Of a stretch of 64,000 nucleotides of DNA, positions 3,504 to 57,197 are shown one piece after another. Under the pieces are notes generated by a model. That model ran no database searches. It was not told the origin of the DNA and worked only from the letters and a program-made list of their open reading frames with translations. Each line of letters begins with the position of its first letter. Within the stretch, counting starts at the first letter, position 1. This stretch comes from an uncultured Chloroflexia bacterium (lineage in GTDB: Bacteria > Chloroflexota > Dehalococcoidia > DSTF01 > JALHUB01), in contig CAWJHZ010000005.1 in assembly GCA_963842845.1 (NCBI GenBank), positions 1,308-65,307 of the forward strand. Direction: 5' to 3'. Both the position numbers and the translations under genes were made by a program.

Positions 3504-3726
<223 letters not shown>

Positions 3727-3867
3727 TTTACTTCACCTTAAAATTAGAATCAACTGCCGAGTTTATAAAATTATTGCTTCCTTTGTTTTTCAGCAGGGCA
3801 AAAACGACATCTAAATAATTTATATGAATTAAAGAAAGCTATGAATTTCCATTTATGCAACCCGAGT

Positions 3868-8273: not shown

Positions 8274-8360
8274 AATTATGAGGGGGGGCGATTAAACTTT
8301 TTTTATGTTTACCGACATGGTATACTTCACCTTCACTCCCCCTCCACCTAATTATTTTTT

Positions 8361-17143: not shown

Positions 17144-17235
17144 ACTTCACCTAAATAAACATCATTAATTGAGTATTTAAAAATTACATAGAAAAGTTTT
17201 TTATATTCTCATGCTGATGCTTTATGAGGTTAAGT

Positions 17236-32254: not shown

Positions 32255-32285
32255 CTAATAGAAAAGAAAGCATTTAAAGTTTTTC

Positions 32286-35082: not shown

Positions 35083-35200
35083 ACCACGGACATAATCCTT
35101 TTTTTTTATACCCGTAATAATTCAATATTGTCGCTAATACCATGCCACCGAATAAACCAAGGAGAAAACCGATAATTATGTCTTTTGTGTCTTTTTTCAT

Positions 35201-35536
35201 TTATCCCCCAACATAGGGTGTTTTTTCTTTCTCACCCTCTATTTTCATGGCTTCAGCGACATGAATCGTATACGTGTTTTTTAATTTCTGTGACCTCATT
35301 AATAGGTTAAGAATAAAATTAACTGATACCATATCATAGACAAGATTTTTCATCGTTGGGTGTCCATTGAAATTCTCTTTACATATCTTTTCAGTTTCGT
35401 CAGCAAGATGACGCATTACTTCTTGAAGAAGTTTATTCATCTTTTCAACATCAAAATCAAGGGTTTTTAAAATACTCTCATCCTGGAGTTGTTTCAGTTT
35501 TTTTTTATCTATCCCTATGTTGATTTCTTTTATCAT
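35201..35536 (-). CDS. hypothetical protein, 111 aa
   Basis: ORF only. Confidence 0.4.
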   Translation of the reverse strand: MIKEINIGIDKKKLKQLQDESILKTLDFDVEKMNKLLQEVMRHLADETEKICKENFNGHPTMKNLVYDMVSVNFILNLLMRSQKLKNTYTIHVAEAMKIEGEKEKTPYVGG

Positions 35537-36426: not shown

Positions 36427-36461
36427 TAATTAAACAATGGGTTTGACGTATTTAAACATTT

Positions 36462-39181: not shown

Positions 39182-39607
39182 TTAAGATTGTACCTGAACC
39201 ATCTCGCAGAGATATGTTATAGGGCTTCCGCTTGTCTCCGCTGCTGCTCGAATATACCCGAGGTTTAATGGTTGTAACTTTATTTCTTCTCCAGGTCCGA
39301 TGAATAATCCTCTGCCACTTGCAATAATGCCACTACCAATATATGGTCTATATGGGGTAGCGCCGCCTATCCATATTCCTCGTAAAGTATCCCCTGAGTT
39401 CACGAAAAAATTATGAGATTGAATGCCTGATGCAAAAATCATTGGTACTTTTACGACAACATTATTGACTACAAACCCTGATGTCTGTAGACCACTTCCT
39501 ATCGCCTGTCCACCGCTTGCGCTCGTTATCAGCACTGTTTCTGCTTTAATTATATTCCCTTCACCAATTAACTGTATTTTCTGCCTACCTTCAGCTATCA
39601 TCACCAT
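39182..39607 (-). CDS. hypothetical Gly/Ser-rich beta-protein with the conserved leader; start of the small-gene operon
   Basis: AAGGTGATTAAAAATG leader; 141 aa. Confidence 0.45.
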   Translation of the reverse strand: MVMIAEGRQKIQLIGEGNIIKAETVLITSASGGQAIGSGLQTSGFVVNNVVVKVPMIFASGIQSHNFFVNSGDTLRGIWIGGATPYRPYIGSGIIASGRGLFIGPGEEIKLQPLNLGYIRAAAETSGSPITYLCEMVQVQS

Positions 39608-39609
39608 TT

Positions 39610-39834
39610 TTAATCACCTTTTTTAACTGGCATTTTTTTTCTATCTATATTTCTTTTTATTATGAAAACAGGTAATTCTCCTGTTGTTGTAATATATGTA
39701 CCATCATCATTTTCTCTCATGTGACGAACTAATATTTTTGCTGGTTTCGGGAAATCAACGCCATCTACGTTCTGCCAATCTCTATTATGTTCTTTGTCTT
39801 TCTTCACATCTGGTTTAAGTTTATCAGAGTCCAT
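39610..39834 (-). CDS. hypothetical basic protein, 74 aa
   Basis: Tightly packed ORF in the operon. Confidence 0.4.
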   Translation of the reverse strand: MDSDKLKPDVKKDKEHNRDWQNVDGVDFPKPAKILVRHMRENDDGTYITTTGELPVFIIKRNIDRKKMPVKKGD

Positions 39835-40096
39835 ATACTACTTTCTCCTGAATCATATACGCTACTAAATTCAGCCCGTCCGTAGTCTCAAGATAATTCC
39901 CTCGTGGTAAACTTGGATATGGATTATCGAGAATCATATTCCATGCGAGTATTAGACAAAATGTTGCATCATATACTATTCCTTTTGTAAAATTAAGTTC
40001 AGCTCTCCCATATCCTGATGTTGTTCCGAAATAATCATCGTTTATTGGGATGTACGTCGCAGCGACATCATATGACGGACATTTATAGAGTTGCAT
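39824..40096 (-). CDS. hypothetical protein, 90 aa
   Basis: ORF in the operon. Confidence 0.4.
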   Translation of the reverse strand: MQLYKCPSYDVAATYIPINDDYFGTTSGYGRAELNFTKGIVYDATFCLILAWNMILDNPYPSLPRGNYLETTDGLNLVAYMIQEKVVYGL

Positions 40097-40109
40097 AATA
40101 ATTAAATTA

Positions 40110-40376
40110 TTACTTTGTGAAGTGGCGATTATCTTTTGGATATAATGATGGTCTGGTTCCCAATAGAATGGGTCTAAACTTGGTGTTGGGGGAGGGCAAC
40201 AATGCTATTCCAACCATATTCGGCCAGTCATATGAGTAATTTGCGAACAATGCACCAGGGAGGTTAAATACATGTCTTCTTTGATGTGACCGTATCGTTG
40301 TAGCTGTTGCATACTCCACATTTTCAGAATAATCCACTCTACCTGTTCCAACTGATGATACAAGCGTCATACTCAT
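40110..40376 (-). CDS. hypothetical protein, 88 aa
   Basis: ORF in the operon. Confidence 0.4.
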   Translation of the reverse strand: MSMTLVSSVGTGRVDYSENVEYATATTIRSHQRRHVFNLPGALFANYSYDWPNMVGIALLPSPNTKFRPILLGTRPSLYPKDNRHFTK

Positions 40377-40771
40377 CCTATTCTCAGATAATATTCTTTT
40401 TCTGCAGTATACATTCCATTCATGGATACATCAACATCAATAATTTTATCACTATAATTGGAGAGTATTAATCGTATTGTCTTAAAAAATGGGAAACCTG
40501 CTGGGATGTTTTGATAAACGCTTGTATATCCTGCTCCATATGTTACATCAGCAATAGTTCCATCTGTTCCAATCGCTTGTACTTTAAGACCTGTGAGAAC
40601 ATGAGCAAAAGTGCAGAGCCTAAAATCATAGACAAAAACAACACTATCTAATGGTATGTCAACATCAACAGTGATATCAGTTAATGGGGGGAAATCTATA
40701 TATTCAGAAAAATATTTATATAACTGTTGATAACTCCTTATGACGGGTTCTACGATATACTCGATGTTCAT
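40373..40771 (-). CDS. hypothetical protein, about 132 aa, preceded by the shared 40-bp leader
   Basis: ATG at 40769-40771 directly follows a leader copy identical to the one upstream of 22769-23035. Confidence 0.45.
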   Translation of the reverse strand: MNIEYIVEPVIRSYQQLYKYFSEYIDFPPLTDITVDVDIPLDSVVFVYDFRLCTFAHVLTGLKVQAIGTDGTIADVTYGAGYTSVYQNIPAGFPFFKTIRLILSNYSDKIIDVDVSMNGMYTAEKEYYLRIG

Positions 40772-40812
40772 TGAATAATCTTTTCTTCCTGTTCCTCGTG
40801 CCTCAACCGTCG

Positions 40813-41154
40813 TCATTTGTTTTCCCCTTCACCTTTCCCATCTATATGCATCGTAACAGTAATAGTATGTGCATTTGTATCATCGTGATTAAGTAATACC
40901 ACTTGAATCATCTCATTAATATCAACATCTATGTTCATTGCAAATGTGCCTGTGAAATCATCTAATGCTAAAGGGTCTGGGGGGAAAGGAAAAATCTGTT
41001 GAGTTCCTTTTTGAATAACAGCATCAACTAAACCGTTACATCCTGCGGGGTAATGAAAAAGAAGCCGTGTTATTTTCCCCGTTATTGGAGAGCATTTTGT
41101 CTGTGTTGTACTCGTTAAGAGCGGGACTGTTTGTCTATATACCATTTCTTCCAT
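40813..41154 (-). CDS. hypothetical protein, 113 aa
   Basis: GAGGT RBS; ORF. Confidence 0.45.
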   Translation of the reverse strand: MEEMVYRQTVPLLTSTTQTKCSPITGKITRLLFHYPAGCNGLVDAVIQKGTQQIFPFPPDPLALDDFTGTFAMNIDVDINEMIQVVLLNHDDTNAHTITVTMHIDGKGEGENK

Positions 41155-41213
41155 TTTTTTCCGACCTCGGTAAAAAGAAATAGAGTGGTAAGTTATTAAA
41201 ACTTACCATGATT

Positions 41214-41657
41214 TTATTCGTATGGCTGTGGGTCGATTTGTATGACTGCTGTTACTGTGCCGCCTAGCTGTGAGCCACCGCTTACCATGACGATGCCGCT
41301 TACATATGGTCCGAGTGCTGGTTCTAATTTGACGATGAAGCTACCACCCAATGCTTGACCACTTGAGATGATGTAATCAACAGCGTAAGCGTTTCCTGAT
41401 ATTTGGAAACCTGATTGTGCGGTTGCGGCATCAGCCCATATCAGTTCAACAGGGTAAATACCGCTTTTATTTGTAACGATGAACTCTTTTAGATACGCGA
41501 CTTTACCGCTTGCTACAGGGAATATCCCTGAGCCGGGGAACTCTCCGCTGATGAATGTTTTCGTTGCATATTGAATCGACCGTAATGAATCAAGAGGGAC
41601 GACAAATGCGCCTTCTTTTGTTCTTACTTGTTGTCTCTCATATTCTACTTCTCCCAT
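41214..41657 (-). CDS. hypothetical beta-rich protein, 147 aa
   Basis: GAGGAGGTG RBS. Confidence 0.45.
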   Translation of the reverse strand: MGEVEYERQQVRTKEGAFVVPLDSLRSIQYATKTFISGEFPGSGIFPVASGKVAYLKEFIVTNKSGIYPVELIWADAATAQSGFQISGNAYAVDYIISSGQALGGSFIVKLEPALGPYVSGIVMVSGGSQLGGTVTAVIQIDPQPYE

Positions 41658-41660
41658 TGT

Positions 41661-42350
41661 TTACACCTCCTCGGGTAAAACCATGTATTGCTGGTAGTCT
41701 TCAAGCATCCAATTTGGTGCTTTAATAGGTCGGTCTCCGTCACCCATTGTTCTGATATGCGCTGGTTTCTCTTTATGGAGATATTGCAGTATCTTTGGTT
41801 TTTCTCTGATGACTTTGTAAGAATAAATGTTGATGTAGAATGCGACAGCGATATTGATTGATTTTCCTGTTATCGGAGGATTCTCAGCGTTGAAATGCGG
41901 GTAGAGGTCATGTACTGTCCAGAGTTCTGTCTCTGGCGCAGGGTCGTCGTAGAGTGAGGAGTTTCCATCCCAATAACCAAATGCCCCAGGAACCGGTCGT
42001 GGAACGATAAGGTTCATCCGGTCTACTCGTTGTGTGTATTGGAGATAGATTTTCGCTTGGGTTGGAGAGATGCCTGTGAAGAACTGATAAATGTATTCTT
42101 CTTCTCGTGGCTCAAGATATCGTCTTGCTGAGGCATCTGTTGGGGTCTGCCAGTTGCTTGTGCCTCCTGCGGCTATTGGTGCTACTAACCCTGTGGTGGT
42201 ATCAATAAACTCATATGGTTTATATCTAGTAAGTTGCTGTTTGCGCAATATCTGTACAAACCAGTATCCTTCATCAAAAAGAAGCCCCACAGTATAGTTT
42301 TCTTTTGGTATAAACTCTTTTTCTTCTATTTCCATCATAGTATTTTTCAC
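41661..42350 (-). CDS. hypothetical protein, 229 aa
   Basis: AGGTGAAAAATACTATG leader. Confidence 0.45.
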   Translation of the reverse strand: MKNTMMEIEEKEFIPKENYTVGLLFDEGYWFVQILRKQQLTRYKPYEFIDTTTGLVAPIAAGGTSNWQTPTDASARRYLEPREEEYIYQFFTGISPTQAKIYLQYTQRVDRMNLIVPRPVPGAFGYWDGNSSLYDDPAPETELWTVHDLYPHFNAENPPITGKSINIAVAFYINIYSYKVIREKPKILQYLHKEKPAHIRTMGDGDRPIKAPNWMLEDYQQYMVLPEEV

Positions 42351-42404
42351 CTTCTATATATATCTACAGGTGTTTTTTAAAGGAAAGAGACTAAGGCTTT
42401 CGCC

Positions 42405-42881
42405 TTAGTAGATACTTCCGAATGCGATGATGTCGACTCTGCCAGAGTTTGCTACAAGCGTTCCTGATGCCCAGCACATTGCACCGGACATAAAGAACCC
42501 GCTGTTACCCTGGATTAATGCATAGTGGATGAGAGCAACGTTTCCGCTGATTCCACCAATACCTGATTCAACATTTGCGTAGGTTGCCTGGTCACATGCT
42601 GCTTGCAGGTTCGGGTTTTTCGGTGTCACAAATATCTTGTGAACCTCACTCAGTTCAGGAATACGGATGCATCCCCAACCTGAGTCGTTGATGGGTTGAA
42701 CATCAACATCACCTGACTCGAACCAGTAGCCGCTTGCTCCTGCATCGCTAGAACCGCAGATACCAGAATAGATGACTTTTGTTCCAGCCCAGACCAATGC
42801 GAGGTCCGCCTTGCTGACGACAACGACATCTTCTTCTGTTCCTTTTGTGACTGCACCTGATGTTTTAATCGGCCATGCCAT
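42405..42881 (-). CDS. hypothetical beta-rich protein, 158 aa; candidate small structural protein
   Basis: AGAGGTGAAGAAAAATG leader; Gly/Ser-rich beta composition. Confidence 0.45.
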   Translation of the reverse strand: MAWPIKTSGAVTKGTEEDVVVVSKADLALVWAGTKVIYSGICGSSDAGASGYWFESGDVDVQPINDSGWGCIRIPELSEVHKIFVTPKNPNLQAACDQATYANVESGIGGISGNVALIHYALIQGNSGFFMSGAMCWASGTLVANSGRVDIIAFGSIY

Positions 42882-42907
42882 TTTTCTTCACCTCTAAGTA
42901 ACTCCAA

Positions 42908-43639
42908 TTACACTGAGGCTGTGACTGTGACTGCAACTTGGTTAGTATTTGCTGCGTAGCTTGTTGCGTTCAGGAAAGCACCTTGTCCGATGGTGAATCC
43001 ACCAAGCCGTGGTTCAGTGACCCCGGGGGCAAGGAATCCGAGTGCGACAAGGACATCCATGTTCTTTAACCAGAATGTTGTCGGTAATGGAATGAGATTT
43101 GTACCTGTCTGATAGTCTCGCAATCGTGCGGCTCGGACATCATAATGGAGGATGTTTGTACGTCCGATATCCATCTTGATTGTCTGTATCTTCGGACATG
43201 CGTTTTCCTCGACGATGTACATTGGGTAGACGGCATAGGTGGTGGCGATGTTAAACGCGGTTGTTGCGGTTGTCGGACTATGAATCCAGTTCTCCAATCC
43301 CACAGTGTTTGCTTCCTTCCGGCAGTCATGCTTCCATTTCCAGACATTATCTGCCTCGGGAACCGCACCATTCACCAATCCGACATGTCCCGGTCTGATT
43401 GGGCTTATTCCAATTTCACTGTTACCACAGTTGAAACCACCAAACTTGAGTTCATCAAGGGCGTTCTTTGCTACTGCGGCGAATAGTTTTACGGTTTCAA
43501 ATTTACTGCCTATGAATTGGCGCTCGAAACCCCAGCTTGGGATATAGAGGTCATTCCATTGACCTACTAAAAGGTTCATCTCATCTGGTGTTAAGTCGGT
43601 TTGCGCAAATTCCTCGTTTTGGATTGCTAATCTTACCAT
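42908..43639 (-). CDS. hypothetical beta-rich protein, 243 aa; candidate structural protein and first gene of the operon
   Basis: TATA-like TTATATAC about 45 nt upstream, then the AAGGTGAAGTAATG leader. Confidence 0.45.
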   Translation of the reverse strand: MVRLAIQNEEFAQTDLTPDEMNLLVGQWNDLYIPSWGFERQFIGSKFETVKLFAAVAKNALDELKFGGFNCGNSEIGISPIRPGHVGLVNGAVPEADNVWKWKHDCRKEANTVGLENWIHSPTTATTAFNIATTYAVYPMYIVEENACPKIQTIKMDIGRTNILHYDVRAARLRDYQTGTNLIPLPTTFWLKNMDVLVALGFLAPGVTEPRLGGFTIGQGAFLNATSYAANTNQVAVTVTASV

Positions 43640-43750
43640 TACTTCACCTTGAGAAAAACAATTTCATCGAAAGTATATAATGGTTGTTGTCTCGATACAT
43701 TACTTGTGTATACAGAAACAGTTAAATAATATAGTATTGATTTATACAAT

Positions 43751-43921
43751 ATGACTAAAAAATTTGCAACAATTCTTGTAAATGTTAAACTCCCTGATGA
43801 CATTGTAAAAAAAATGGATTCCCTCATCGAAAAACATGAATTTGATACCCGCTCAAGCCTCATTAGAAAAGCTGTTGTTGAATATCTAAAAAAATATGAA
43901 GAAAAAACATTAATATCTTAG
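43751..43921 (+). CDS. ribbon-helix-helix (CopG-like) transcription regulator, 56 aa; not in the ORF track
   Basis: MTKKFATILVNVKLPDDIVKKMDSLIEKHEFDTRSSLIRKAVVEYL fits the classic beta-strand plus two helices. It is divergent from the structural-like operon. Confidence 0.55.
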   Translation: MTKKFATILVNVKLPDDIVKKMDSLIEKHEFDTRSSLIRKAVVEYLKKYEEKTLIS

Positions 43922-44196
43922 AAAAATTCCAGATGGCTTTAGAGTATTATGTAGAAATTGCAACTGGATAGAGAGATTAAAAATGATTAAAAAATGACAC
44001 TTTGACATAATCTTTAAATAGTGATAAAGTAATTATTCCCCATGGCTGAAACTGTGAGACCAACGAATGTCGACCGTGAGAAATATGTCTCTTTTGTGAA
44101 TAACTGCCGGAGCAATGATAAAAACATTCGTTTTGAGTTAGAAAGTCTCCTTGATTCTTATAATAAAAAAAATAAAAAATAAATTGGTGAAATGTT

Positions 44197-44625
44197 TTAA
44201 GCGATGATAACGCCAGATGATACTCGCCCTAAGCCTGTGCCTTCATACCCTGGCACTTTACTGGTGACGTACCACGGGTTGTTGACTTGTGTATAATATC
44301 CTTGTGTCGCTACTGTTTTCATCGGGGCAGCTCGTGATGTCATTGCGTATGCGCAAGGCCAAATATATTGAAGGATTCCGTAGATGATTGCTGGAACACT
44401 ATATGCCATGATAAATGTGTTTACATTGTCTTTTTTAATAAGTTTCGTGAAAAATGCAGCAATGAGACCGATACCACCTGTTGCTATCGGGATTAACACT
44501 GATGGTCTAAACCCGAAGATGCTTGGGTATTGTGGGTCAAGATATTTTGCTATTAATGTTGGAACAAGGATGCCTGTTCCTGCTCCCGCTCCTATCACGG
44601 CTAATTGTTTTTTATAGGGGTCCAT
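44197..44625 (-). CDS. small membrane protein; paralogue A of a tandem pair
   Basis: MDPYKKQLAVIGAGAGTGILV...; 3-4 TM segments; paralogous to 44651-45076. Confidence 0.5.
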   Translation of the reverse strand: MDPYKKQLAVIGAGAGTGILVPTLIAKYLDPQYPSIFGFRPSVLIPIATGGIGLIAAFFTKLIKKDNVNTFIMAYSVPAIIYGILQYIWPCAYAMTSRAAPMKTVATQGYYTQVNNPWYVTSKVPGYEGTGLGRVSSGVIIA

Positions 44626-44650
44626 AGATTTTACCTTCTATGTTTTTTTT

Positions 44651-45076
44651 TTAAGCGACGATGGTTTTATTGGAGATGCCTGTTGGTGTTTGCATTCCAT
44701 TCCCCAGGACGGGGGTTACTGCCGCCGACCGGACTATTTGCCGATTGGTCGACATTCTAAGTCCAGCGCCAGGGGTTGATTCGACAAACCCGGTGATTAA
44801 GGAACTGAACAGTGCGGCGAACCCGTACATTGCAAGTGAGTCGTTTATGAATGCATGTTTTCGGGATATCCAGTCTGTGAATTGTGTGATAACTAAGGAT
44901 GCTGCACCAGTAACAAGTGGTACAAACACATGGTATGTTCCCCAGACTCCGAGTGTGTTGAGATATGGTACTTGTGTGCCAATCATTGGCTCAACGTATT
45001 TTTTCAAAACAGGGCTCATTATTGCACCGACGCTAGCGCCGGCACCCATCGCTAAAATTCTTTTCTCAAAGCGCAT
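44651..45076 (-). CDS. small membrane protein; paralogue B of a tandem pair
   Basis: MRFEKRILAMGAGASVGAIM...; doubled GGTGAA leader. Confidence 0.5.
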   Translation of the reverse strand: MRFEKRILAMGAGASVGAIMSPVLKKYVEPMIGTQVPYLNTLGVWGTYHVFVPLVTGAASLVITQFTDWISRKHAFINDSLAMYGFAALFSSLITGFVESTPGAGLRMSTNRQIVRSAAVTPVLGNGMQTPTGISNKTIVA

Positions 45077-45155
45077 TTTTATTTCACCTTTGGTTTTACT
45101 TCACCTTATACTAAGAATAAATTAAACAGTATTTAAAACTTTCTTGTCATTCAAT

Positions 45156-45461
45156 TTATCGACCGCGAATGGCACTTGCTGTTCGTTGACCAGCTGCACC
45201 AAGGACGCTTCTTCCTGTCGCTGTCGCAAATAAGGCAACAAGAATGCCGCCGACAATCATGCCGCCCACAAAACTTCCCCAATCGAAACCAAGTTTCTGT
45301 GTCTGTCCATTCATGCTGGTTGTATATTGCTGAGTTGGAGTTTGTTGAATTTCTTGAGAATAGGGATAATGTACATCTTGTCCTGGTTGCGACCTCCCTA
45401 TGATATCACGTCCCATGATGCTTGGGTTGTCAACAACAACACCACAATTACTGCATACCAT
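45156..45461 (-). CDS. hypothetical protein with a C-terminal TM anchor, 101 aa
   Basis: Conserved leader; hydrophobic WGSFVGGMIVGGILVALFATA. Confidence 0.45.
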   Translation of the reverse strand: MVCSNCGVVVDNPSIMGRDIIGRSQPGQDVHYPYSQEIQQTPTQQYTTSMNGQTQKLGFDWGSFVGGMIVGGILVALFATATGRSVLGAAGQRTASAIRGR

Positions 45462-45503
45462 TTTTACTTCACCTTACTAAAGAAAATAAAATATCAGGTA
45501 TAT

Positions 45504-46340
45504 CTATTTTTTCACTGCGAGATAAATAATCCCGACAACAAATACGATGGGGATGAGAATTGCGGGGTTGAATAATGTTTTTTGCTGTGCGATGCTATGA
45601 CAACTTGTTCCATCCCAGGTGCATCCTGCGGCTGTACAATCCGCTTCGTTTGTTATGTAGTCACATTGGGTTAATGCAACAAGACCATCTCGGTTATGGG
45701 CAAGCCACATGATGCAATCCTGCGATGACGGGTCGCCAGGGTTGTCATGATACCAGTAAGAAATCCAATCATTATATTTCTGTATAGATGCTTGAACTGC
45801 CTCAATAAAAGAACTGCCGTTGCTTAATGCAATCATAAGCTCATTTGCTGATTCGTAGAAACCTTTTGCATATTTATCTTGATATGGGTCTACATAAATA
45901 AAATTGTTATCTGTGTCTGTCTCCGCTATCCATGTCCATTCGACATTGAAACCAGCGTACGCGAGAGCCCCTTTTTTCATTATCATTGGGCCAAGAGAAT
46001 TTGCTGTAAGACAACTTAAAAGATAGACCATTCTCCCATTTAGATTATCACAGGAATTTGTATTCCAAATATCTTCTCTATGTTGAGCAGTAAAACGGTC
46101 GTTATTCCCATGACCGAAACCATAGATAACGCCAGGGTCGTTTGTAGCGATAGATGAGTAAACCGCCTCCTGGTTCGCCTGTTCATCAGCTAAATCAAAG
46201 GTTGCCCATTTTGTTTGAGCGTCTTGTTCAACATGTCCAACGGCATTAAAACCCTGGAGACATGTATCGCATGATTCCGCTGGAGAACAATCATCACAAC
46301 GCTTCGCTCGGATGAAAAGTATTTTACTCATATCAGGCAT
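45504..46340 (-). CDS. putative clan-CD-like cysteine peptidase with a C-terminal membrane anchor
   Basis: A hydrophobic block then His-Gly (VIYGFGHGN), and a hydrophobic block then Cys (MVYLLSCLTAN), fit the His/Cys dyad pattern of C11/C13/C25-type enzymes. C-terminal TM helix. Confidence 0.35.
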   Translation of the reverse strand: MPDMSKILFIRAKRCDDCSPAESCDTCLQGFNAVGHVEQDAQTKWATFDLADEQANQEAVYSSIATNDPGVIYGFGHGNNDRFTAQHREDIWNTNSCDNLNGRMVYLLSCLTANSLGPMIMKKGALAYAGFNVEWTWIAETDTDNNFIYVDPYQDKYAKGFYESANELMIALSNGSSFIEAVQASIQKYNDWISYWYHDNPGDPSSQDCIMWLAHNRDGLVALTQCDYITNEADCTAAGCTWDGTSCHSIAQQKTLFNPAILIPIVFVVGIIYLAVKK

Positions 46341-46350
46341 ATTTTACCTC

Positions 46351-47196
46351 TTAACTAGGTTTTGGAGGAAGATAATATTGTTGTTTTCTACTTAATAAGC
46401 CAGGGACTACTTTTGCTACAACATAGATACCAGCGACAGCTGCTACCCCTATAATAATTACATTGACTAGGTTTTTCCATGTTTGTTGGTCAAGTAATTT
46501 ATTATATAACGCTGTGGTATCAATCCCTTGTTGTTGTACACAAACTGATTTTCCGCAACTTGCTTGGTTAAACGTCTGCCCGGCTTGATTTAACGGGATA
46601 TCAATGATTTCTCCATTGTTTAATGTACGTCGCTCTAAAGTATCTCCAGTGGTATAGGTAGAATGTACTGCTCCTGTTCCACTATTTATAAATTCACGTT
46701 CTTTTATGTCTTGTGACTGTGCAGCTACATCATAGGCATGGATATTCGCATTTTGTTGATTAACTTGAACCCAAGAATTTGCAATTATCGCTAGAGCACC
46801 CACTAAAATAACGATACAAACAAGAACAATAATAAAAATAGGAATTGGTAACCCATGTATCATCGTCATTGTTATTTGTTCAGGGTTTTTAACTTGATTT
46901 AATTCTATCGGATGTCCCATGAAGATTGGTGCGCCATTGCTAGCTGTATCAATTTTTGTCCCAATCATACTATTTAATATTGTTGCTGATACTGTTGTTC
47001 CATCAGCAAGAGATAGCATCCCCCCTGTGGTAACAGGTTGTATAACATAAAAACGGTTTGATGTTAAAGTCTCTTGATGCGGTTGATTTATAAGTATTGT
47101 ACTGTTCGGTGCTTGATATACTGAGACATTTGTTTCAGTTGTGTAGGGATAGGCATAACCAAATGTAGTTGGTATAAGATATGGGTAGAGGGACAT
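46351..47196 (-). CDS. hypothetical membrane protein, 281 aa
   Basis: Conserved leader; internal TM helix IPIFIIVLVCIVILVGALAIIA and a C-terminal TM. Confidence 0.5.
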   Translation of the reverse strand: MSLYPYLIPTTFGYAYPYTTETNVSVYQAPNSTILINQPHQETLTSNRFYVIQPVTTGGMLSLADGTTVSATILNSMIGTKIDTASNGAPIFMGHPIELNQVKNPEQITMTMIHGLPIPIFIIVLVCIVILVGALAIIANSWVQVNQQNANIHAYDVAAQSQDIKEREFINSGTGAVHSTYTTGDTLERRTLNNGEIIDIPLNQAGQTFNQASCGKSVCVQQQGIDTTALYNKLLDQQTWKNLVNVIIIGVAAVAGIYVVAKVVPGLLSRKQQYYLPPKPS

Positions 47197-47230
47197 TTTA
47201 CTTCACCTTCTTTTGAATCATCTTATTTGT

Positions 47231-48166
47231 TTATAAAACTTTCTCTGAAAATGTTAAATTCCATGATTTTATAGGACTATATTCGGGGGGGAGGACAGTT
47301 CTGCACCAAGCGTACATATTCCAACTCACTAATTTTTTTTCTGTAAAATTAACATTAACATTTAACTGACTCTGGTTTTCATTCCACCCTGACTGATATA
47401 TAAGAGTAGATGCCCCATAGACATCTACAACATTAATAGCACATGAGCGTGTAACATAACCCCAGCATGAATTTACACCGATTGTTCCCTCTAAATGATT
47501 CATTGTATATTGTTTATCAAAAGCGATATTACATCCTGAAATCTCTGCGCCGCTATAAGTGAAATTAACAGTTGGCATCCATATCATATTATCCACCCCT
47601 GCTATTTGACAAGCACTATTTTTCTGTAGAGGACATCCGCCTGGATATTGATAATCGCTTGTTATAGGGATATAGGGAAAATTAGTATCATAATACCCTG
47701 CCGCTGAAGCATGAGTGCTATAAACACCAAATGGTATGTTTGCTATGTACCAATATCCATTTAAATCACTAACACCAGTATAGGTTTGATTGGTGTCTTT
47801 ATTGGTGAATGTTATCGTCATCCCTGCGACAGGGCCAAGCCGTACGTTTTCATAATATCCCATTGCTTGTCCACCAATTATTGTTGTTGTGGGGGCATCT
47901 GGTACGCAAAATCCATCGGTACAATGTTCACCCGTGGGACAATTAGCATTACTTGAACAATTAGTATCTAACTGACATGTACCATCTGTTCCACATATTT
48001 GACCTTGTGGACAATCTGAATTTGATGCACAGGAAACTTTTTTATTTCCACCTAAATATCCGTTTTGCCATGCCCAATAAACTACATATCCTCCTATTCC
48101 TACTGCTGCTAATCCAGCGATAATTGCCGCCCAATTTGTTCCCTTTTTAGAAGGAAAGTAATACAT
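47231..48166 (-). CDS. membrane-anchored Cys-rich secreted protein with a carboxypeptidase-regulatory-like beta-sandwich
   Basis: N-terminal TM helix; three CxxGxxC(T/G)DGxC modules; MTITFTNKDTNQTYTGVSDLNGYWYIANIPFGVY. Confidence 0.45.
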   Translation of the reverse strand: MYYFPSKKGTNWAAIIAGLAAVGIGGYVVYWAWQNGYLGGNKKVSCASNSDCPQGQICGTDGTCQLDTNCSSNANCPTGEHCTDGFCVPDAPTTTIIGGQAMGYYENVRLGPVAGMTITFTNKDTNQTYTGVSDLNGYWYIANIPFGVYSTHASAAGYYDTNFPYIPITSDYQYPGGCPLQKNSACQIAGVDNMIWMPTVNFTYSGAEISGCNIAFDKQYTMNHLEGTIGVNSCWGYVTRSCAINVVDVYGASTLIYQSGWNENQSQLNVNVNFTEKKLVSWNMYAWCRTVLPPEYSPIKSWNLTFSEKVL

Positions 48167-48278
48167 GGGTGGAGGAGGATAATATGGTGGTTCTTGAAAA
48201 ACATTCGGTTGATGGTCGTATCTATTCTTAGGAATAATAATTCACCAAACAAATAATGAATTGTGGAGTATTAAAAAG

Positions 48279-48497
48279 TTATGCTATCCCACCAAGTTTT
48301 AATAGCTCATCATGGAGTTTCTTCTCCGCTATGAGTATCTGCTCCCCCACGGTGCTCCCTGATTGTGCTTCTCGTATCATGTCTTCAGGGCTGTAATATT
48401 GTCCTATCATGAATACGCCTTTTAAATCACCGGATTCATACCGCTGTTGTAATCGTTGGAGTAGAATCTGTTTTGTCGTCTGGTCTATGAGTTCCAT
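48279..48497 (-). CDS. hypothetical protein, 72 aa
   Basis: Conserved leader. Confidence 0.4.
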   Translation of the reverse strand: MELIDQTTKQILLQRLQQRYESGDLKGVFMIGQYYSPEDMIREAQSGSTVGEQILIAEKKLHDELLKLGGIA

Positions 48498-48650
48498 TTT
48501 ATTTCACCTGTTGCCATATCGCGTCATTTGCTTGTGCGTGTTGCAAGAGCCCTCGTGGTGTCATCACCACTCCTTTTATATCAAACGGTGTGTCTGCTTG
48601 ACCGAGTGGTTCAAGCTGTCTCACCCATGTTTCTACTTGTGCTAAATCCA

Positions 48651-49187
48651 TTATTCTCTTTCTCCTTTTTTACGTCCCATGAGTAAACCTAATAGAAGAA
48701 TACCCCCGAATCCAGCAAGCATTATCACCCCGCCAGCAGTTGTTGGTGGTGTTGCGCATGATTCTGTTGTTGGATTCCATGTGCCATTAATGCAATCATT
48801 CCAATAACCATTAATGCATTCCCTTGCGCCCTCGCTGCATCCTCCTTCGATATGCCCAACCCGTATCTCTCCAAAGAATGCATCTGAGATACCATCCGGG
48901 AATGAAACAACTACAGATTTGTTTCCTCCTGCTATAATTTGTGCTTCCCAATAGGTTCCTATAACCTCCTGATTCAACACAGTATCCCATAGCATTCCAT
49001 ATGCAGTTAATGATGCAGTGGCAGCGTTTGTTGCAGTATAAGATATATTAAAAACTGTTCCTGGTTCAACTGGTGATGGGGAAACCAGGTCAGTGATATT
49101 CATGAATGAACCGAAATTTTGTACTCCGTTTCTGCCCCCTATGCTATCAAGGACATATTGCATACTTTTTCCTCTATCAATCGTCAC
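48651..49187 (-). CDS. hypothetical secreted/anchored protein, 178 aa
   Basis: ORF; C-terminal TM helix. Confidence 0.45.
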   Translation of the reverse strand: MTIDRGKSMQYVLDSIGGRNGVQNFGSFMNITDLVSPSPVEPGTVFNISYTATNAATASLTAYGMLWDTVLNQEVIGTYWEAQIIAGGNKSVVVSFPDGISDAFFGEIRVGHIEGGCSEGARECINGYWNDCINGTWNPTTESCATPPTTAGGVIMLAGFGGILLLGLLMGRKKGERE

Positions 49188-49197
49188 GTTTCAGGCT

Positions 49198-49833
49198 TTA
49201 TTGAATATGTCCTGCTAACAACTGTCCTGTGAAAGCAGCATTTACTGTAACAGTTACAGATTCGGTTGCTGTTGCTCCAGCAGCTACAGCTACTTCTACA
49301 TAACCGCCAATTAAATTCGGGGTTGGTGTCGCTAAATCATAGAGACCCGCCCAAAGCGTTCCTGGTCCACCATTGTTCTTTATTGTATAACCGATTGTAC
49401 AGTTTGTTGTTGGTTCTACCGTCTGACTTGGGCTATATGTTATTGTTCCAGTGAATGCTGCTGAGGGATACGCCTGATAAGCGACAGTTACACTCATTGT
49501 GTCATCAAGGACTTGAGTACTAGTCCCTAGATAATGTCCACAATCTACTCTAATCACTGTTGCTGCACTACCCATAGTAAATGAATATGTCGCTGATGAC
49601 CATGTTGCTCCGGCCCCTATTGATGCTGTTACTGTATCCACCAGAGAACCATCCCTATAGACTTTTCTCCAGAGGGTGTCTGCTGCTCCTGTGTTTGTGA
49701 TGGTTGGGGTTACAACAACAGTTGCATTTGGCAACGAGGGGTTTGGATTTGCAACAAGATTTGTTATATCAGCAAAACCTTGCGCTAAAACATAAATTGA
49801 CACTGATGCGGTTGCATCTTGTATGTTCGTCAT
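49198..49833 (-). CDS. tandem CARDB-like-domain protein
   Basis: Two modules resembling NATVVVTPTITNTGAADTLW...; TTTATAT box and GGTGAAGTAAGTATG leader. Confidence 0.5.
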   Translation of the reverse strand: MTNIQDATASVSIYVLAQGFADITNLVANPNPSLPNATVVVTPTITNTGAADTLWRKVYRDGSLVDTVTASIGAGATWSSATYSFTMGSAATVIRVDCGHYLGTSTQVLDDTMSVTVAYQAYPSAAFTGTITYSPSQTVEPTTNCTIGYTIKNNGGPGTLWAGLYDLATPTPNLIGGYVEVAVAAGATATESVTVTVNAAFTGQLLAGHIQ

Positions 49834-49935
49834 ACTTACTTCACCAAGAACGAATCACAATATCAGAATATAAACTTTTTGTTAAAAAATAAAAAATTTC
49901 ACCAGTGCTATCTCCACTGGTGAATCCTCATCTTT

Positions 49936-50253
49936 TTAACTTGTCGATGTAGTTGGCGTTATCCAAGTAATGATTTTATTGAGGATGTCGTCACTTGCCC
50001 AGCCAAACCCAAAGGCTAATGCAAAGACATTTAATAACGATGTTGCAGGTATTGAAAACATCGGGAATACTAATATTGCTGCGACCCCGCCACCAATCAC
50101 AACAAGGACGAACGATAACACATATTTCACTTGGAAGTTAATTGTGTTATCATCTTTGTGTTTAAAGACATAGGGTATCGTTGTTCGCAATATACAGGCG
50201 AGCAGTATTCCAATGAACGCAACAGCCTCGGGACTTATATTTATGCCTAACAT
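49936..50253 (-). CDS. small polytopic membrane protein, 105 aa
   Basis: Conserved leader; three TM helices. Confidence 0.5.
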   Translation of the reverse strand: MLGINISPEAVAFIGILLACILRTTIPYVFKHKDDNTINFQVKYVLSFVLVVIGGGVAAILVFPMFSIPATSLLNVFALAFGFGWASDDILNKIITWITPTTSTS

Positions 50254-50425
50254 TACTTCACCATTTAAGAAAAATTGATTGTCTCTATTTAATACTTTCT
50301 AGAAAAACTTATTAAACATCAATAAAACCTGTACCAATAATAGCATTCTTTCTCAAAACAGCAGAGATACATCCAAGGGCAATACGGGTAGCAATATCTT
50401 TTCTCAGATGTTTCTTTCGCCTCCG

Positions 50426-56964: not shown

Positions 56965-57197
56965 TCAACCATCCATACGATTATCCATTCGATTATAAAA
57001 AGCAAAATATAGAGAAATACGGATATGACTGTCATCGCTGCTGTCTGCCAAAACCCATTTGGTTTAAGAGCCATCCACAGGAAACTAATAATGAAACAAG
57101 GTATCATCATTAAAACCAGGATGAAAGAAATAAGACCAATTCCTGATAGTTTATCAAGTATTCTACCCATACATTTCGCTCTCTTTTTTCTCCTCAA
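56961..57197 (-). CDS. small membrane protein, 78 aa
   Basis: Two TM helices. Confidence 0.4.
   Translation of the reverse strand: MRRKKRAKCMGRILDKLSGIGLISFILVLMMIPCFIISFLWMALKPNGFWQTAAMTVISVFLYILLFIIEWIIVWMVD

What the first reader, a model, noticed from the sequence alone, without database searches (positions are those of the whole stretch)
39182..50253. Eleven-kb minus-strand operon of 20 small unknown proteins sharing a near-invariant AAGGTGAAGTAAAATG leader
At least ten start codons (3726, 39607, 42350, 42881, 43639, 45076, 45461, 47196, 48497, 49833, 50253) are preceded by the same 11-13 nt TACTTCACCTT-type sequence on the plus strand. Its reverse complement is (A)AGGTGAAGTAAAA, a maximal GGTGA Shine-Dalgarno with a fixed A-rich spacer. 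Genes are stop/start overlapped, beta-rich or membrane-anchored, and have no recognisable homologues. They could encode a virion or surface-structure module, but no capsid, portal or ATPase hallmark is present. The leader's uniformity suggests co-regulated, highly translated genes or a leader-specific recognition element.
Basis: seen in the sequence. Interest (0 to 1): 0.55.

Follow-up and report, generated by a model that had tools for sequence, protein, structure and literature searches.

The report
Repeated promoter-leader in archaeal virus-like genes
The repeated AAGGTGAAGTA sequence is real, and it most likely marks the transcription start and ribosome-binding site of about nine separate short transcripts, not one operon, in the probable particle and membrane-protein genes of an uncharacterised archaeal virus-like element.

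Summary
The motif is real. GGTGAAGTA occurs 9 times, all on the minus strand, against 0.35 expected. The region is not one operon, and the 16-mer is exact at only 2 starts.

The region holds about 9 transcription units, 2 plus-strand regulator-type genes and 3 hairpin terminators. Eight of the 9 copies lie 21-25 nt downstream of a TATA-like octamer. In 49 related loci that spacing peaks sharply at 21-25 nt, the archaeal TATA-to-start distance. So the motif most likely sits at the transcription start, giving an 11-19 nt leader that begins with the Shine-Dalgarno GGUGA.

The AGT extension goes with promoter-linked sites. Operon-internal sites use GGAGGT or GGTGAT. Some long leaders keep a start-site copy too far from the ATG to serve as its ribosome-binding site.

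The carrier is an AT-rich element with many orphan genes, homing endonucleases, an intein and sugar-modification genes. It is absent from IMG/VR and INPHARED. One 3.3-kb contig is binned as Nanoarchaeota.

Two conserved proteins (243 and 225 aa) model confidently as beta-sandwiches, with only weak, non-significant jelly-roll similarity. No capsid, portal or ATPase hallmark was found.

The leader is an ordinary kind of signal with a family-specific sequence. The element itself is the more interesting part.

The parts
50251..50293 (-). Promoter-leader unit 1. ATTAAATA (50293-50286), 23 nt, then GGTGAAGTA (50262-50254) and ATG at 50253.
   Evidence: (27.8 bits)
49936..50253 (-). 105-aa protein with 3 hydrophobic segments. 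It is the only gene of its unit.
49898..49924 (-). 10-bp hairpin followed by ATTTTTTATT. Terminator-like, and closes unit 1.
49831..49874 (-). Promoter-leader unit 2. TTTATATT (49874-49867), 21 nt, then GGTGAAGTA (49845-49837) and ATG at 49833.
48279..49833 (-). Four genes of unit 2: 211 aa (weak CARDB-like match), 178 aa or 170 aa depending on the start chosen (C-terminal membrane anchor), 50 aa and 72 aa. The last start (48497) uses the internal site GGTGAAATAAAATG.
48238..48276 (-). Promoter-like unit 3. TTTTAATA (48276-48269), 22 nt, then GGTGAATTA. The first ATG of the 311-aa ORF is 80 nt downstream at 48166, and the frame is open from the motif onwards.
   Evidence: (19.5 bits); unexplained
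47231..48166 (-). 311-aa protein with an N-terminal membrane anchor, 14 Cys and a CarboxypepD_reg domain (E = 5.8e-9).
47194..47237 (-). Promoter-leader unit 4. TTTATAAA (47237-47230), 22 nt, then AAGGTGAAGTAAAATG with ATG at 47196.
   Evidence: (27.2 bits)
45504..47196 (-). 281-aa membrane protein and 278-aa Cys-rich (11 Cys) protein with a C-terminal anchor. The second gene uses GAGGTAAAATATG.
45459..45506 (-). Promoter-leader unit 5. TAGATATA (45506-45499, only 6/8 match), 25 nt, then AAGGTGAAGTAAAAATG with ATG at 45461. Followed by the 101-aa C-terminally anchored protein (45156-45461).
45074..45137 (-). Promoter-leader unit 6 with two motif copies. TTTAAATA (45137-45130), 24 nt, then AAGGTGAAGTAAAA (start-site copy at 45105). 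A second copy, AAGGTGAAATAAAAATG (45088), sits at the ATG at 45076.
44197..45076 (-). Two similar-sized membrane proteins, 141 and 142 aa. Homologues are found in 24 and 15 related loci.
44162..44183 (-). Oligo-T tract (TTTATTTTTTATTTTTTTTATT) after the stop at 44197. Candidate archaeal terminator.
   Evidence: read directly
43751..44182 (+). Two plus-strand genes that split the supposed operon. One is a 56-aa ribbon-helix-helix (RHH) protein (43751-43921), divergent from the 243-aa gene. The other is a conserved 46-aa protein (44042-44182). Both have leaderless-type promoters.
   Evidence: the divergent gene is also seen
43637..43681 (-). Promoter-leader unit 7. ATTATATA (43681-43674), 25 nt, then AAGGTGAAGTAATG with ATG at 43639.
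42908..43639 (-). 243-aa conserved protein and the family marker. It has 105 homologues. The AF2 model has pLDDT 89: three N-terminal helices followed by an 8-9-strand beta-sandwich. Candidate major structural protein.
42405..42881 (-). 158-aa beta-rich protein, the second gene of unit 7. Its internal SD is GAGGTGAAGAAAAATG. Relatives use GGAGGTAAA at this position.
42390..42409 (-). 8-bp hairpin followed by CTCTTTCCTT. Terminator-like.
42336..42381 (-). Promoter-leader unit 8. TTTAAAAA (42381-42374), 22 nt, then AAGGTGAAAAATACTATG with ATG at 42338.
   Evidence: (15.8 bits)
41214..42338 (-). 225-aa conserved protein (68 homologues; AF2 pLDDT 81.6; beta-sandwich) and a 147-aa protein whose internal SD is GAGGAGGTG.
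41186..41208 (-). 9-bp hairpin followed by CTCTATTTCT. Terminator-like. It overlaps the next TATA box (TTTTAATA, 41201-41194).
39182..41154 (-). Unit 9. Six tightly packed or overlapping genes (113, 147, 88, 90, 74 and 141 aa), soluble and beta-rich. The unit is headed by TATA, 23 nt, then GAGGTCGGAAAAAAATG, so it lacks the GGTGAAGTA form.
17141..17181 (-). Same promoter-leader outside the finding. TTTAAATA, 22 nt, then GGTGAAGTATG, in front of the 1934-aa repeat protein (11339-17143).
3724..3769 (-). Same promoter-leader outside the finding. TTTATAAA, 24 nt, then AAGGTGAAGTAAAATG. Its gene is cut off by the chimeric junction near 3640.
8323..8331 (-). Orphan exact copy of GGTGAAGTA. It has no ORF of 30 aa or more downstream and no well-placed TATA box.

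Best explanation
The 11-kb region is the late or structural gene cluster of an uncultivated archaeal virus-like element. It is not one operon. It is read as about nine short transcription units.

Each unit has an archaeal core promoter: an A-rich BRE-like stretch, a TATA octamer and an AT-rich proximal element. The conserved (A)AGGTGAAGTA begins 21-25 nt downstream of the TATA box, which is where archaeal RNA polymerase starts. The mRNAs would therefore begin with about 5'-(A)GGUGAAGUA... The whole 5' leader would be only about 11-19 nt. Its first bases would be the Shine-Dalgarno (SD) element GGUGA, which pairs with the canonical ...AUCACCUCC-3' end of 16S rRNA.

The leader looks near-invariant because three signals are packed into about 15 nt: the start site with its initially transcribed sequence, the SD, and an A-rich spacer before AUG. 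The AGT(A/G) extension belongs to the promoter or 5'-end function, not to rRNA pairing.

The motif marks a co-regulated set of membrane-anchored and beta-sandwich proteins, probably virion and envelope components. Regulator and enzyme genes of the same element use leaderless or other starts.

Shown: motif enrichment, its position before starts, the fixed TATA spacing, family-wide conservation, and the multi-unit layout. Inferred: the actual transcription start, late timing, the virion role and the archaeal host.
For: Enrichment and strand: 9 exact copies, all on the minus strand, against 0.35 expected.

TATA spacing in the window: 8 of the 9 copies have a TATA-like octamer 21-25 nt upstream.

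TATA spacing in the family (49 non-redundant related loci, 441 kb):
- 73 of 112 GGTGAAGT sites have a TTTAWATA match of at least 7/8 within 60 nt upstream.
- The gap peaks at 21-25 nt, with 56 hits.
- The controls GGTGAA[not G] and GGTGA[not A] show only weak peaks.

Position profile anchored on the motif: A-rich at -36 to -34, T/A-rich at -31 to -25, AT-rich at -10 to -8, and A at -1 in 66% of sites.

Independent test. A matrix was trained on relatives only, without imposing the extension. It shows A 77%, G 66% and T 72% after GGTGA. It finds 12 sites of at least 15.8 bits in the window, against about 0.35 per shuffle at 14 bits or more.

Promoter linkage of the extension: GGTGAAGT is present at 51 of 135 promoter-proximal SD sites and at 16 of 85 operon-internal sites (p = 0.004). 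Internal sites use GGAGGT or GGTGAT, the canonical anti-SD complement.

Separation of the start-site role from the SD role: 23 of 60 TATA-linked copies have no ATG within 12 nt. At least 6 long leaders carry a second copy at the ATG, including the pair at 45105 and 45088 in the window.

Other genes of the window have a TATA box 21-24 nt from the ATG itself, the leaderless type. This fits the same TATA-to-start distance.

Bacterial sigma-70-type promoters are not enriched: 32 found against 35.5 expected.

Published Thermococcales start-site maps show the TATA box about 23 bp upstream of the start, median 5' UTRs of 11-16 nt, and SD GGDGRD a few nt from the start (PMC4247193 and PMC5316973).

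Family conservation. The motif is upstream of the 243-aa gene in nearly all of 45 distinct relatives. Gene order and the divergent small gene are conserved; that gene carries an RHH match in the window and a weak one in L003.

Virus-like nature:
- No housekeeping genes in 60 kb.
- Homing endonucleases, an intein and a sugar-modification set are present.
- Among 185,579 species genomes there is a single hit, on a 3.3-kb contig.
Against: - No transcript data exist, so the start site is inferred from spacing alone.
- No viral hallmark gene was found (capsid of known fold, portal, terminase, packaging ATPase, polymerase or integrase). The family is absent from IMG/VR and INPHARED. A plasmid or another element is therefore not excluded.
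- Foldseek gave no match at E <= 1e-3 for either model, so the structural-protein reading is weak.
- In long leaders the second, ATG-proximal copy often carries the same AGT extension. The extension may therefore also matter at the RNA or translation level.
- Unit 9 and unit 8 lack the full motif.
- The copy at 8331 has no gene downstream. The promoter at 48246 has no nearby start codon.
- The host 16S 3' end is unknown.
Confidence: 0.62

Rival explanations
1. The motif is purely translational: an extended ribosome-binding site. It works only at the RNA level as a strong SD plus enhancer, and its position relative to the TATA box is incidental.
For: - 220 GGTGA sites across the family are followed at 3-10 nt by an ATG-started ORF of at least 50 codons.
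- In long leaders the ATG-proximal copy often keeps the AGT extension: L057, L019 and L034.
- 16 of 85 operon-internal sites also carry GGTGAAGT.
Against: - The extension A-G-T does not pair with the canonical ...GGAUCACCUCC-3' tail.
- Internal SD sites of the same genomes prefer GGAGGT or GGTGAT.
- The sharp 21-25 nt TATA spacing is specific to GGTGAAGT.
- Start-site copies with no start codon within 12 nt exist.
Confidence: 0.15
2. The motif is a recognition element specific to the leader or initiator. A factor encoded by the element would bind it on DNA or on the 5' end of the RNA and switch on a late regulon. Candidates are the conserved divergent RHH protein or the 46-aa protein. This overlaps with the best explanation rather than excluding it.
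For: - The motif is restricted to one functional subset of genes.
- It is conserved across relatives whose marker protein is only 41-50% identical.
- The small divergent genes next to the 243-aa gene are conserved in 31-35 loci.
- A Nanoarchaeota chromosome fragment has the same TATA-to-SD layout but no GGTGAAGT in 21 kb.
Against: - No binding data exist.
- No dyad or repeat operator was found in the 43640-43750 region.
- RHH proteins usually bind inverted or direct repeats, not a single 9-mer.
- The motif varies between clades (GGTGAAATGAAAA in L004, GGTGATGTGAAA in the Guaymas-type loci) without any matching factor having been identified.
Confidence: 0.2
3. The region is not viral. It would be a cell-surface and glycosylation island of an archaeal (DPANN-type) chromosome or plasmid, and the motif would simply be that organism's usual strong promoter.
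For: - No viral hallmark genes were found.
- Glycosyltransferases, methyltransferases and sugar enzymes lie next to the cluster in the window and in relatives.
- One relative is binned in a Nanoarchaeota MAG.
- A real Nanoarchaeota locus shows the same compact promoter layout.
Against: - There is only 1 hit among 185,579 species genomes, and it is on a 3.3-kb contig.
- Contigs top out at 68-89 kb, and the same contig recurs in different samples.
- No housekeeping gene is present in 60 kb.
- Free-standing LAGLIDADG, HNH and NUMOD3 endonucleases and an intein are typical of large virus genomes.
- The motif is used by only a subset of the element's genes.
Confidence: 0.15
4. The element is a bacteriophage with sigma-70 promoters, and GGTGA is a bacterial SD.
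For: GGTGA can pair with bacterial 16S rRNA as well. The closest named relatives of the DegT gene include Bacteroidales, at about 45% identity.
Against: - Sigma-70-type promoters are not enriched: 32 found against 35.5 expected.
- TATA octamers lie at a fixed 21-25 nt from the motif, or from the ATG of SD-less genes.
- No PHROG or INPHARED matches were found.
Confidence: 0.03

Closest known systems
Compact archaeal promoter and 5' UTR layout mapped in Thermococcales (T. kodakarensis, T. onnurineus)
   Same: The BRE and TATA box lie about 23 bp upstream of the start, with an AT-rich element near -10 and a purine start. The median 5' UTR is 11-16 nt, and an SD of the GGDGRD type lies a few nt from the 5' end. 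Leaderless mRNAs coexist with SD-led ones (PMC4247193 and PMC5316973). The window shows the same spacing and both classes.
   Different: Here the SD starts at or within about 1 nt of the predicted start, rather than about 6 nt in. A specific 9-11-mer, (A)AGGTGAAGT(A/G), recurs at many promoters of one element family, whereas cellular 5' UTRs are described as poorly conserved. No start-site mapping exists for this element.
Class-specific promoter consensus motifs of large DNA viruses (T4 late TATAAATA, poxvirus late TAAAT(G), mimivirus AAAATTGA); cited from general knowledge
   Same: A short, nearly identical sequence sits at or next to the transcription start of a functional gene class (structural or late genes). 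It is repeated many times in one genome.
   Different: Those motifs are read by virus-encoded or virus-modified transcription machinery. Here no such factor has been identified, and the motif also contains the ribosome-binding site. Temporal class was not tested.
Single jelly-roll capsid proteins and other jelly-roll beta-sandwiches (IBDV VP2, tymovirus, sobemovirus and picornavirus coat proteins, C1q/TNF, CBM)
   Same: The confident AF2 models of the 243-aa and 225-aa proteins are 8-9-strand beta-sandwiches. Their best, though weak, Foldseek matches are of this type.
   Different: All matches have E >= 0.015 and a TM-score of about 0.2-0.3. There are no matches in Pfam, PHROGs or by PDB sequence search. 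No packaging ATPase is present in the window. The two proteins are not detectably related to each other.
Virus-encoded glycosylation of virion proteins (chlorovirus PBCV-1, STIV); cited from general knowledge
   Same: The structural-type gene cluster is conserved next to GT1 glycosyltransferases, methyltransferases and nucleotide-sugar enzymes, in the window and in relatives.
   Different: Glycosylation of these proteins was not shown. The link rests on gene neighbourhood only.

Membership tests
Archaeal BRE/TATA promoter with a short SD-containing leader | A TATA octamer centred about 26-27 nt upstream of the transcription start, leaving about 22-24 nt between the TATA box and +1. | tested here: met
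   The gap from TATA end to the first G of the motif is 21-25 nt for 8 of 9 copies in the window. It peaks at 21-25 nt for 56 hits in the family, and only weakly in the controls.
Archaeal BRE/TATA promoter with a short SD-containing leader | [quoted passage not shown] | tested here: met
   The profile of 112 sites shows A at 47-58% for -36 to -34, and A+T of at least 79% for -10 to -8. The information content is low.
Archaeal BRE/TATA promoter with a short SD-containing leader | A mapped transcription start at a purine, downstream of the TATA box. | not testable with these tools
   No RNA data are available. A at -1 (66%) and G at 0 are the candidate start bases.
Archaeal BRE/TATA promoter with a short SD-containing leader | An SD complementary to the 16S rRNA 3' end, placed 3-10 nt before the start codon. 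| tested here: met
   AGGTGA matches the canonical ...UCACCU... tail (established knowledge). The spacing from GGTGA to ATG is 3-11 nt, with the mode at 7-8. The host 16S rRNA itself is not available.
   About 9 TATA-headed units, two plus-strand genes at 43751-44182, and 3 intergenic hairpin-plus-T sites together with an oligo-T tract.
Bacterial sigma-70 promoter | -35 and -10 hexamers enriched upstream of genes. | tested here: not met
   32 sites found against 35.5 +/- 6 in shuffles.
Jelly-roll (single or double) major capsid protein | A significant structural match to a known jelly-roll capsid protein. | tested here: inconclusive
   The best matches are IBDV VP2 at E = 0.015 with TM 0.28 (243 aa), and TYMV, AMV and SBMV coat proteins at E = 0.07-0.1 with TM 0.24-0.30 (225 aa). 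None reaches E <= 1e-3. BFVD also gave none.
Jelly-roll (single or double) major capsid protein | An FtsK/HerA-type packaging ATPase encoded in the same genome. | tested here: not met
   No such Pfam or PHROG match was found among about 70 ORFs of the 60-kb window. About 9 kb of the 73-kb contig was not seen.
Tailed viruses (Caudoviricetes, HK97 fold) | A large terminase subunit, a portal protein and an HK97-fold capsid protein. | tested here: not met
   The same scans found none. tblastn against INPHARED with 3 proteins gave no match.
Known viral contig collections | A relative of the marker protein in IMG/VR or in deposited phage or archaeal-virus genomes. | tested here: not met
   IMG/VR has 0 relatives. 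INPHARED has 0.

The most novel reading that the evidence does not exclude
The element belongs to an undescribed family of large (about 70-90 kb) viruses of DPANN-type archaea. Their virion proteins would have folds unrelated to any known capsid lineage. GGTGAAGT(A/G) would be a family-specific initiator or 5'-terminal leader element that defines a late regulon. It would be read by a factor encoded by the element, or it would load ribosomes from the extreme 5' end of the mRNA.
Probability: 0.2. Interest if true: 0.75.

Novelty: new member of a known kind. Interest (0 to 1): 0.42.

Why it matters
The leader itself is an ordinary type of signal, an archaeal core promoter fused to a Shine-Dalgarno element. 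It is still useful in three ways.
- It gives a sequence handle for finding the highly expressed, probably virion-related genes of an element whose proteins match nothing known.
- It shows that one element uses at least two expression classes side by side: leaders with the Shine-Dalgarno element at the very 5' end, and leaderless starts.
- It offers a simple test system for how far a Shine-Dalgarno element can sit at the very 5' end of an archaeal mRNA.

The carrier family has about 105 marker homologues, mostly from metagenomes. It is invisible to IMG/VR and INPHARED, and only one member is binned, in a Nanoarchaeota MAG. It may be an unrecognised group of archaeal viruses with their own glycosylation genes.

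Tried and rejected
Protein family and homology searches
- Pfam and PHROGs on the module proteins gave almost nothing. The exceptions were a CarboxypepD_reg domain, weak CARDB matches and RHH_1.
- tblastn of the 243-aa, 225-aa and 297-aa proteins against INPHARED found nothing.
- An IMG/VR scan for relatives of the marker protein found none.
- The profile of the 243-aa family found nothing credible against PDB sequences.
- The profile search of 1.84 billion representative proteins gave 80 clusters, most of them about 200-270 aa, plus some short fragments. None is in Pfam or PHROGs. The tape-measure and decoration hits belong to three odd multi-domain or low-complexity proteins (P0336, P0364, P0367; P0364 and P0367 are borderline at E about 3e-4), not to the 243-aa domain.
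- hhalign of the 243-aa family against the 225-aa family showed no relationship.

Structure comparison
- Foldseek of both AF2 models against PDB, and of the 243-aa model against BFVD, gave no match at E <= 1e-3.

Host inference
- The closest relatives of the DegT aminotransferase are unnamed metagenomic proteins. Named ones, at about 45% identity, are a mix of Bacteroidales and Nanoarchaeota, so this was uninformative.

RNA and DNA features
- Predicted folding energy of the leaders does not differ from that of random 45-nt windows (p = 0.42).
- A search for operator-like repeats around the RHH gene and the 243-aa intergenic region found nothing convincing.
- Rfam found only the tRNA-Asn gene.

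Literature
- Searches for the motif and for DPANN viruses found no description of this family.

Ideas rejected
- The repeats are copies of a longer duplicated cassette. Rejected because similarity stops outside the TATA box and the roughly 11-nt motif.
- The extension pairs with rRNA. Rejected because internal SD sites point to a canonical anti-SD.

Full report
**1. The observation**

The motif is real and far above chance.
- GGTGAAGTA occurs 9 times in the window, all on the minus strand. Dinucleotide-preserving shuffles give 0.35 on average and never more than 2.
- AGGTGAAGTA with up to one mismatch gives 14 hits against 3.6 expected, 12 of them on the minus strand.

I read the upstream sequence of every ORF in 39182-50253.
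- The start at 45076 has GGTGAAATA, plus an exact copy 17 nt further upstream.
- The starts at 48497, 42881 and 42350 have GGTGAA followed by something else.
- The start at 39607 has only GGTGATTAA.
- The full 16-mer is exact at only two starts.
- The distance to the ATG is not fixed.
- Two exact copies were missed: 17151, in front of a 1934-aa repeat protein, and 8331, which has no ORF of 30 aa or more downstream.

**2. It is not one operon**

- The minus-strand run is interrupted by two plus-strand genes. One is a 56-aa ribbon-helix-helix (RHH) protein at 43751-43921 (RHH_1, E = 1.6e-6). The other is a 46-aa protein at 44042-44182.
- Intergenic hairpins followed by T-rich tails lie at 49924-49898, 42409-42390 and 41208-41186. 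An oligo-T tract follows the stop at 44197.
- A TATA-like octamer precedes eight GGTGA sites in the region, and a ninth unit that has GAGGTCGG instead.
- The region therefore holds about nine short transcription units of 1-6 genes each. True stop/start overlap is limited to 39182-41154 and 48279-49187.

**3. Where the motif sits**

In the window, 8 of the 9 exact copies have a TATA-like octamer whose end lies 21-25 nt upstream of the first G.

To test this beyond one genome I collected relatives through the best-conserved protein of the cluster, the 243-aa product of 42908-43639.
- It has 105 homologues at 41-100% identity.
- I obtained 63 loci from JGI metagenomes and several from ENA.

In 49 non-redundant loci (441 kb):
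- 73 of 112 GGTGAAGT occurrences have a TTTAWATA match of at least 7/8 within 60 nt upstream.
- The gap distribution has a sharp peak at 21-25 nt, with 56 hits.
- GGTGAA[not G] (284 sites) and GGTGA[not A] (522 sites) show only weak peaks.

A position profile anchored on the motif shows an A-rich stretch at -36 to -34, T/A-rich positions at -31 to -25, an AT-rich patch at -10 to -8, and A at -1 in 66% of sites. This is the layout of an archaeal BRE/TATA promoter. In that layout transcription starts about 23 bp downstream of the TATA box (PMC4247193; PMC5316973). The predicted start therefore falls on the A or G at the 5' edge of the motif. The whole 5' UTR would be about 11-19 nt and would begin with the Shine-Dalgarno (SD) sequence.

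Bacterial sigma-70-type promoters are not enriched (32 against 35.5 expected).

**4. The extension beyond GGTGA goes with the promoter, not with rRNA pairing**

- Across the family I found 220 GGTGA sites followed, after 3-10 nt, by an ATG-started ORF of at least 50 codons. GGTGAAGT is present at 51 of 135 promoter-proximal sites and at 16 of 85 operon-internal sites (Fisher p = 0.004).
- Internal sites favour GGTGAT (T at +5 in 34% against 12%). In orthologous second genes they favour GGAGGTA or GAGGAGGTG. These are the canonical complement of ...AUCACCUCC-3'. The host anti-SD therefore looks ordinary, and A-G-T would not pair with it.
- I trained a weight matrix on relatives only, using any GGTGA with a TATA box at 21-25 nt and without imposing the extension. 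The matrix still shows A 77%, G 66%, T 72%, purine 81% and A 72% after GGTGA. It recovers 12 sites of at least 15.8 bits in the window: 50262, 49845, 48246, 47207, 45473, 45105, 43648, 42351, 24514, 17151 and 3737, plus one probable false hit on the plus strand. The null gives about 0.35 per shuffle at 14 bits or more.
- Of 60 TATA-linked GGTGAAG sites, 23 have no ATG within 12 nt. Some use TTG. At least six long leaders carry a second copy right at the ATG, including the pair at 45105 and 45088 in the window. The start-site copy is therefore kept even where it cannot be the working ribosome-binding site.
- The ATG-proximal copies in these long leaders often keep the AGT extension too. An additional RNA-level role is therefore not excluded.

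**5. Other genes of the same element use other starts**

- Several window genes have a TATA box 21-24 nt from the ATG itself and no SD: 9334-10545, 26847-28142, 35533-36426, 57163-57888 and the RHH gene. These are leaderless-type starts.
- The conserved 46-aa gene shows this layout in 16 of 24 relatives.
- A family-wide count of SD-less first ATGs shows only a modest peak at 22-25 nt.
- The motif thus marks a subset of genes.
- A real Nanoarchaeota chromosome fragment (L069, with RuBisCO and other cellular genes) has the same layout of TATA, 20-23 nt, a purine-rich SD and then the start. Its SD is of the AGGGG type, and there is no GGTGAAGT in 21 kb. This is one lineage only, and not necessarily the host.

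**6. What the genes are**

- In 44197-50253, 8 of 11 proteins have N- or C-terminal hydrophobic anchors. Two are Cys-rich (11 and 14 Cys). One has a CarboxypepD_reg domain (E = 5.8e-9), and one has a weak CARDB-like match.
- In 39182-43639, all ten proteins are soluble.
- The conserved core across relatives comprises the 243-aa, 225-aa, 158-aa, 147-aa and 113-aa proteins, the paired membrane proteins, the 278-aa Cys-rich protein and the two small plus-strand genes.
- The AF2 model of the 243-aa protein has pLDDT 89 and pTM 0.88. It shows three N-terminal helices and an 8-9-strand beta-sandwich.
- The AF2 model of the 225-aa protein has pLDDT 81.6 and is also a beta-sandwich.
- Foldseek found no match at E <= 1e-3 in PDB (both models) or in BFVD (the 243-aa model). 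The weak top hits are jelly-roll sandwiches. For the 243-aa protein they are IBDV VP2, C1q and CBM35. For the 225-aa protein they are tymovirus, sobemovirus, alfamovirus and picornavirus coat proteins.
- Neither model is a metabolic fold, but capsid identity is not established.
- The two families are not detectably related to each other.
- The profile of the 243-aa family reaches only 80 clusters among 1.84 billion representative proteins. Most are 200-270 aa, and none is in Pfam or PHROGs.

**7. The carrier**

- Apart from the first roughly 3.6 kb, the window is 30-43% GC.
- It encodes many orphan genes.
- It has free-standing LAGLIDADG, HNH and NUMOD3 endonucleases.
- It has an intein-bearing protein.
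- It has a tRNA-Asn gene.
- It has a block of sugar-modification genes: a DegT aminotransferase, an epimerase, UDP-glucose dehydrogenase, two GT1 glycosyltransferases and several methyltransferases.
- It has beta-helix and InlB-repeat proteins.
- It has a 1934-aa repeat protein.
- No housekeeping gene and no viral hallmark gene was found.
- Relatives sit on contigs of up to 68-89 kb. One contig recurs in two samples.
- The gene order is conserved: a small divergent gene (an RHH match in the window and a weak one in L003), then the 243-aa gene, then small beta proteins, with glycosyltransferases nearby.
- IMG/VR holds no relative.
- Among 185,579 species genomes there is one hit, a 3.3-kb contig binned as Nanoarchaeota.
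- I read this as an uncultivated archaeal virus-like element. The viral nature and the host are both inferences.

**8. Mechanism, with shown and inferred steps**

Shown:
- motif enrichment, strand and position;
- the fixed TATA spacing;
- family-wide conservation;
- the promoter-proximal bias of the extension;
- the multi-unit layout;
- the class of proteins served.

Inferred:
- Host TBP and TFB bind the TATA box and BRE, and RNAP starts at the A or G at the 5' edge of the motif.
- The mRNA begins with (A)GGUGAAGUA.
- The 30S subunit pairs its ...AUCACCUCC-3' tail with AGGUGA at the very 5' end and starts 3-10 nt downstream.
- The shared start region gives these units similar, probably high and co-timed, expression.
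- The conserved divergent RHH and 46-aa genes are the obvious regulator candidates, but nothing links them to the motif.

**9. Comparison with what is known**

The layout matches the compact promoter and 5' UTR layout mapped in Thermococcales: a TATA box about 23 bp upstream of the start, median UTRs of 11-16 nt, and SD GGDGRD close to the 5' end.

Three things differ here.
- The SD lies at the predicted 5' terminus.
- One specific 9-11-mer is reused at many promoters.
- That 9-11-mer is conserved across an element family.

As a class-specific signal at the start site it resembles the late-promoter motifs of large DNA viruses (general knowledge). No dedicated factor is known here.

**10. Verdict**

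The finding is a true, strongly non-random signal. It is best explained as a start-site-embedded SD leader repeated at about nine promoters of a probable structural and membrane-protein regulon. The single-operon framing is wrong, and "near-invariant" is overstated. The signal is a new member of a known kind. The element that carries it is uncharacterised and is the more interesting object.

Noticed in passing
window 1-3640: The left end has 65-69% GC, against 30-43% for the rest. It encodes an MmpL3-like transporter fragment (E = 1.8e-37 to PDB MmpL3). A short stretch around 3440-3640 looks by eye like a tRNA-guanine transglycosylase fragment; this was not tested. The motif-headed gene that starts at 3726 is cut off at this point. 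The region is most likely an assembly chimera joined to the AT-rich element.
   Followed up: partly
window 51669-53474 (-): This 601-aa ORF consists mostly of an intein (Intein_splicing plus LAGLIDADG_3, E about 1e-16) inserted in a host protein of only about 124 aa. By eye the flanking parts carry primase-like motifs (ITCDLD ... SSEHGFH ... AGDD|intein|SIRC). The spliced sequence had no Pfam match.
   Followed up: partly
window 48166-48276 (-): A well-scoring promoter (TTTTAATA, 22 nt, then GGTGAATTA; 19.5 bits) has no start codon nearby. The first ATG of the 311-aa ORF is 80 nt downstream. The frame is open from the TGA inside GGTGA and would encode ...EPPYYPPPP. Either this is a long leader without an SD, or translation starts at a non-canonical codon (ATT). 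No homologues were found among the loci held that could decide this.
   Followed up: partly
window 11339-17143 (-): A 1934-aa protein with long internal tandem repeats (GGTGAAGTCCATAT recurs about every 650 bp) and strong strand compositional skew. It is headed by the same promoter-leader. Next to it lie a beta-helix protein (9334-10545) and an InlB-B-repeat protein (8361-9431). This could be a fibre or adhesin block.
   Followed up: no
window 8323-8331 (-): An orphan exact GGTGAAGTA, followed by ATG at 8317 but by no ORF of 30 aa or more. It is preceded by GGTGGAGGGGGAGTGAA rather than a well-placed TATA box. It could be a decayed gene start, a tiny ORF, or the 5' end of a non-coding RNA.
   Followed up: partly
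window 19557-38368: A large block of sugar- and methyl-modification genes: a DegT/perosamine-synthase-like aminotransferase, a cupin, an epimerase, UDP-glucose dehydrogenase, two GT1 glycosyltransferases, and a 598-aa protein with a three-fold methyltransferase match. Free-standing homing endonucleases are interleaved (NUMOD3 at 25784-26698, LAGLIDADG at 37571-38368, HNH at 17397-18071). GT genes also sit next to the 243-aa gene in distant relatives (L001, L004, L066).
   Followed up: partly
window 30095-30169 (-): A tRNA-Asn (GTT) gene lies inside the element, with no integrase nearby.
   Followed up: no
L015, L054, L055, L061, L058, L009, L057, L019, L034 (upstream of the 243-aa gene or its neighbours): Tandem copies of the motif occur within one leader. 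In some cases each copy has its own TATA box 22-24 nt upstream (L034), which suggests duplicated promoter-leader cassettes. In clades with a marker protein 41-52% identical, the consensus shifts to GGTGAAATGAAAA (L004) or GGTGATGTGAAA (L037, L038, L042).
   Followed up: partly
L001 and L002 (10774-11730); L003 (10764-11446); L004 (10817-11465): The gene after the 243-aa gene is present once in the window (158 aa). In relatives it is present as two adjacent genes of similar length (156+156, 105+113 and 103+104 aa).
   Followed up: no
L069 (JAGLZG010000057, Nanoarchaeota MAG): In this cellular DPANN locus, several genes show a TATA box, then 20-23 nt, then AGGGG(G/T) and the start. Others are leaderless-type. 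The compact layout with the SD at the start site may be common in this lineage.
   Followed up: partly
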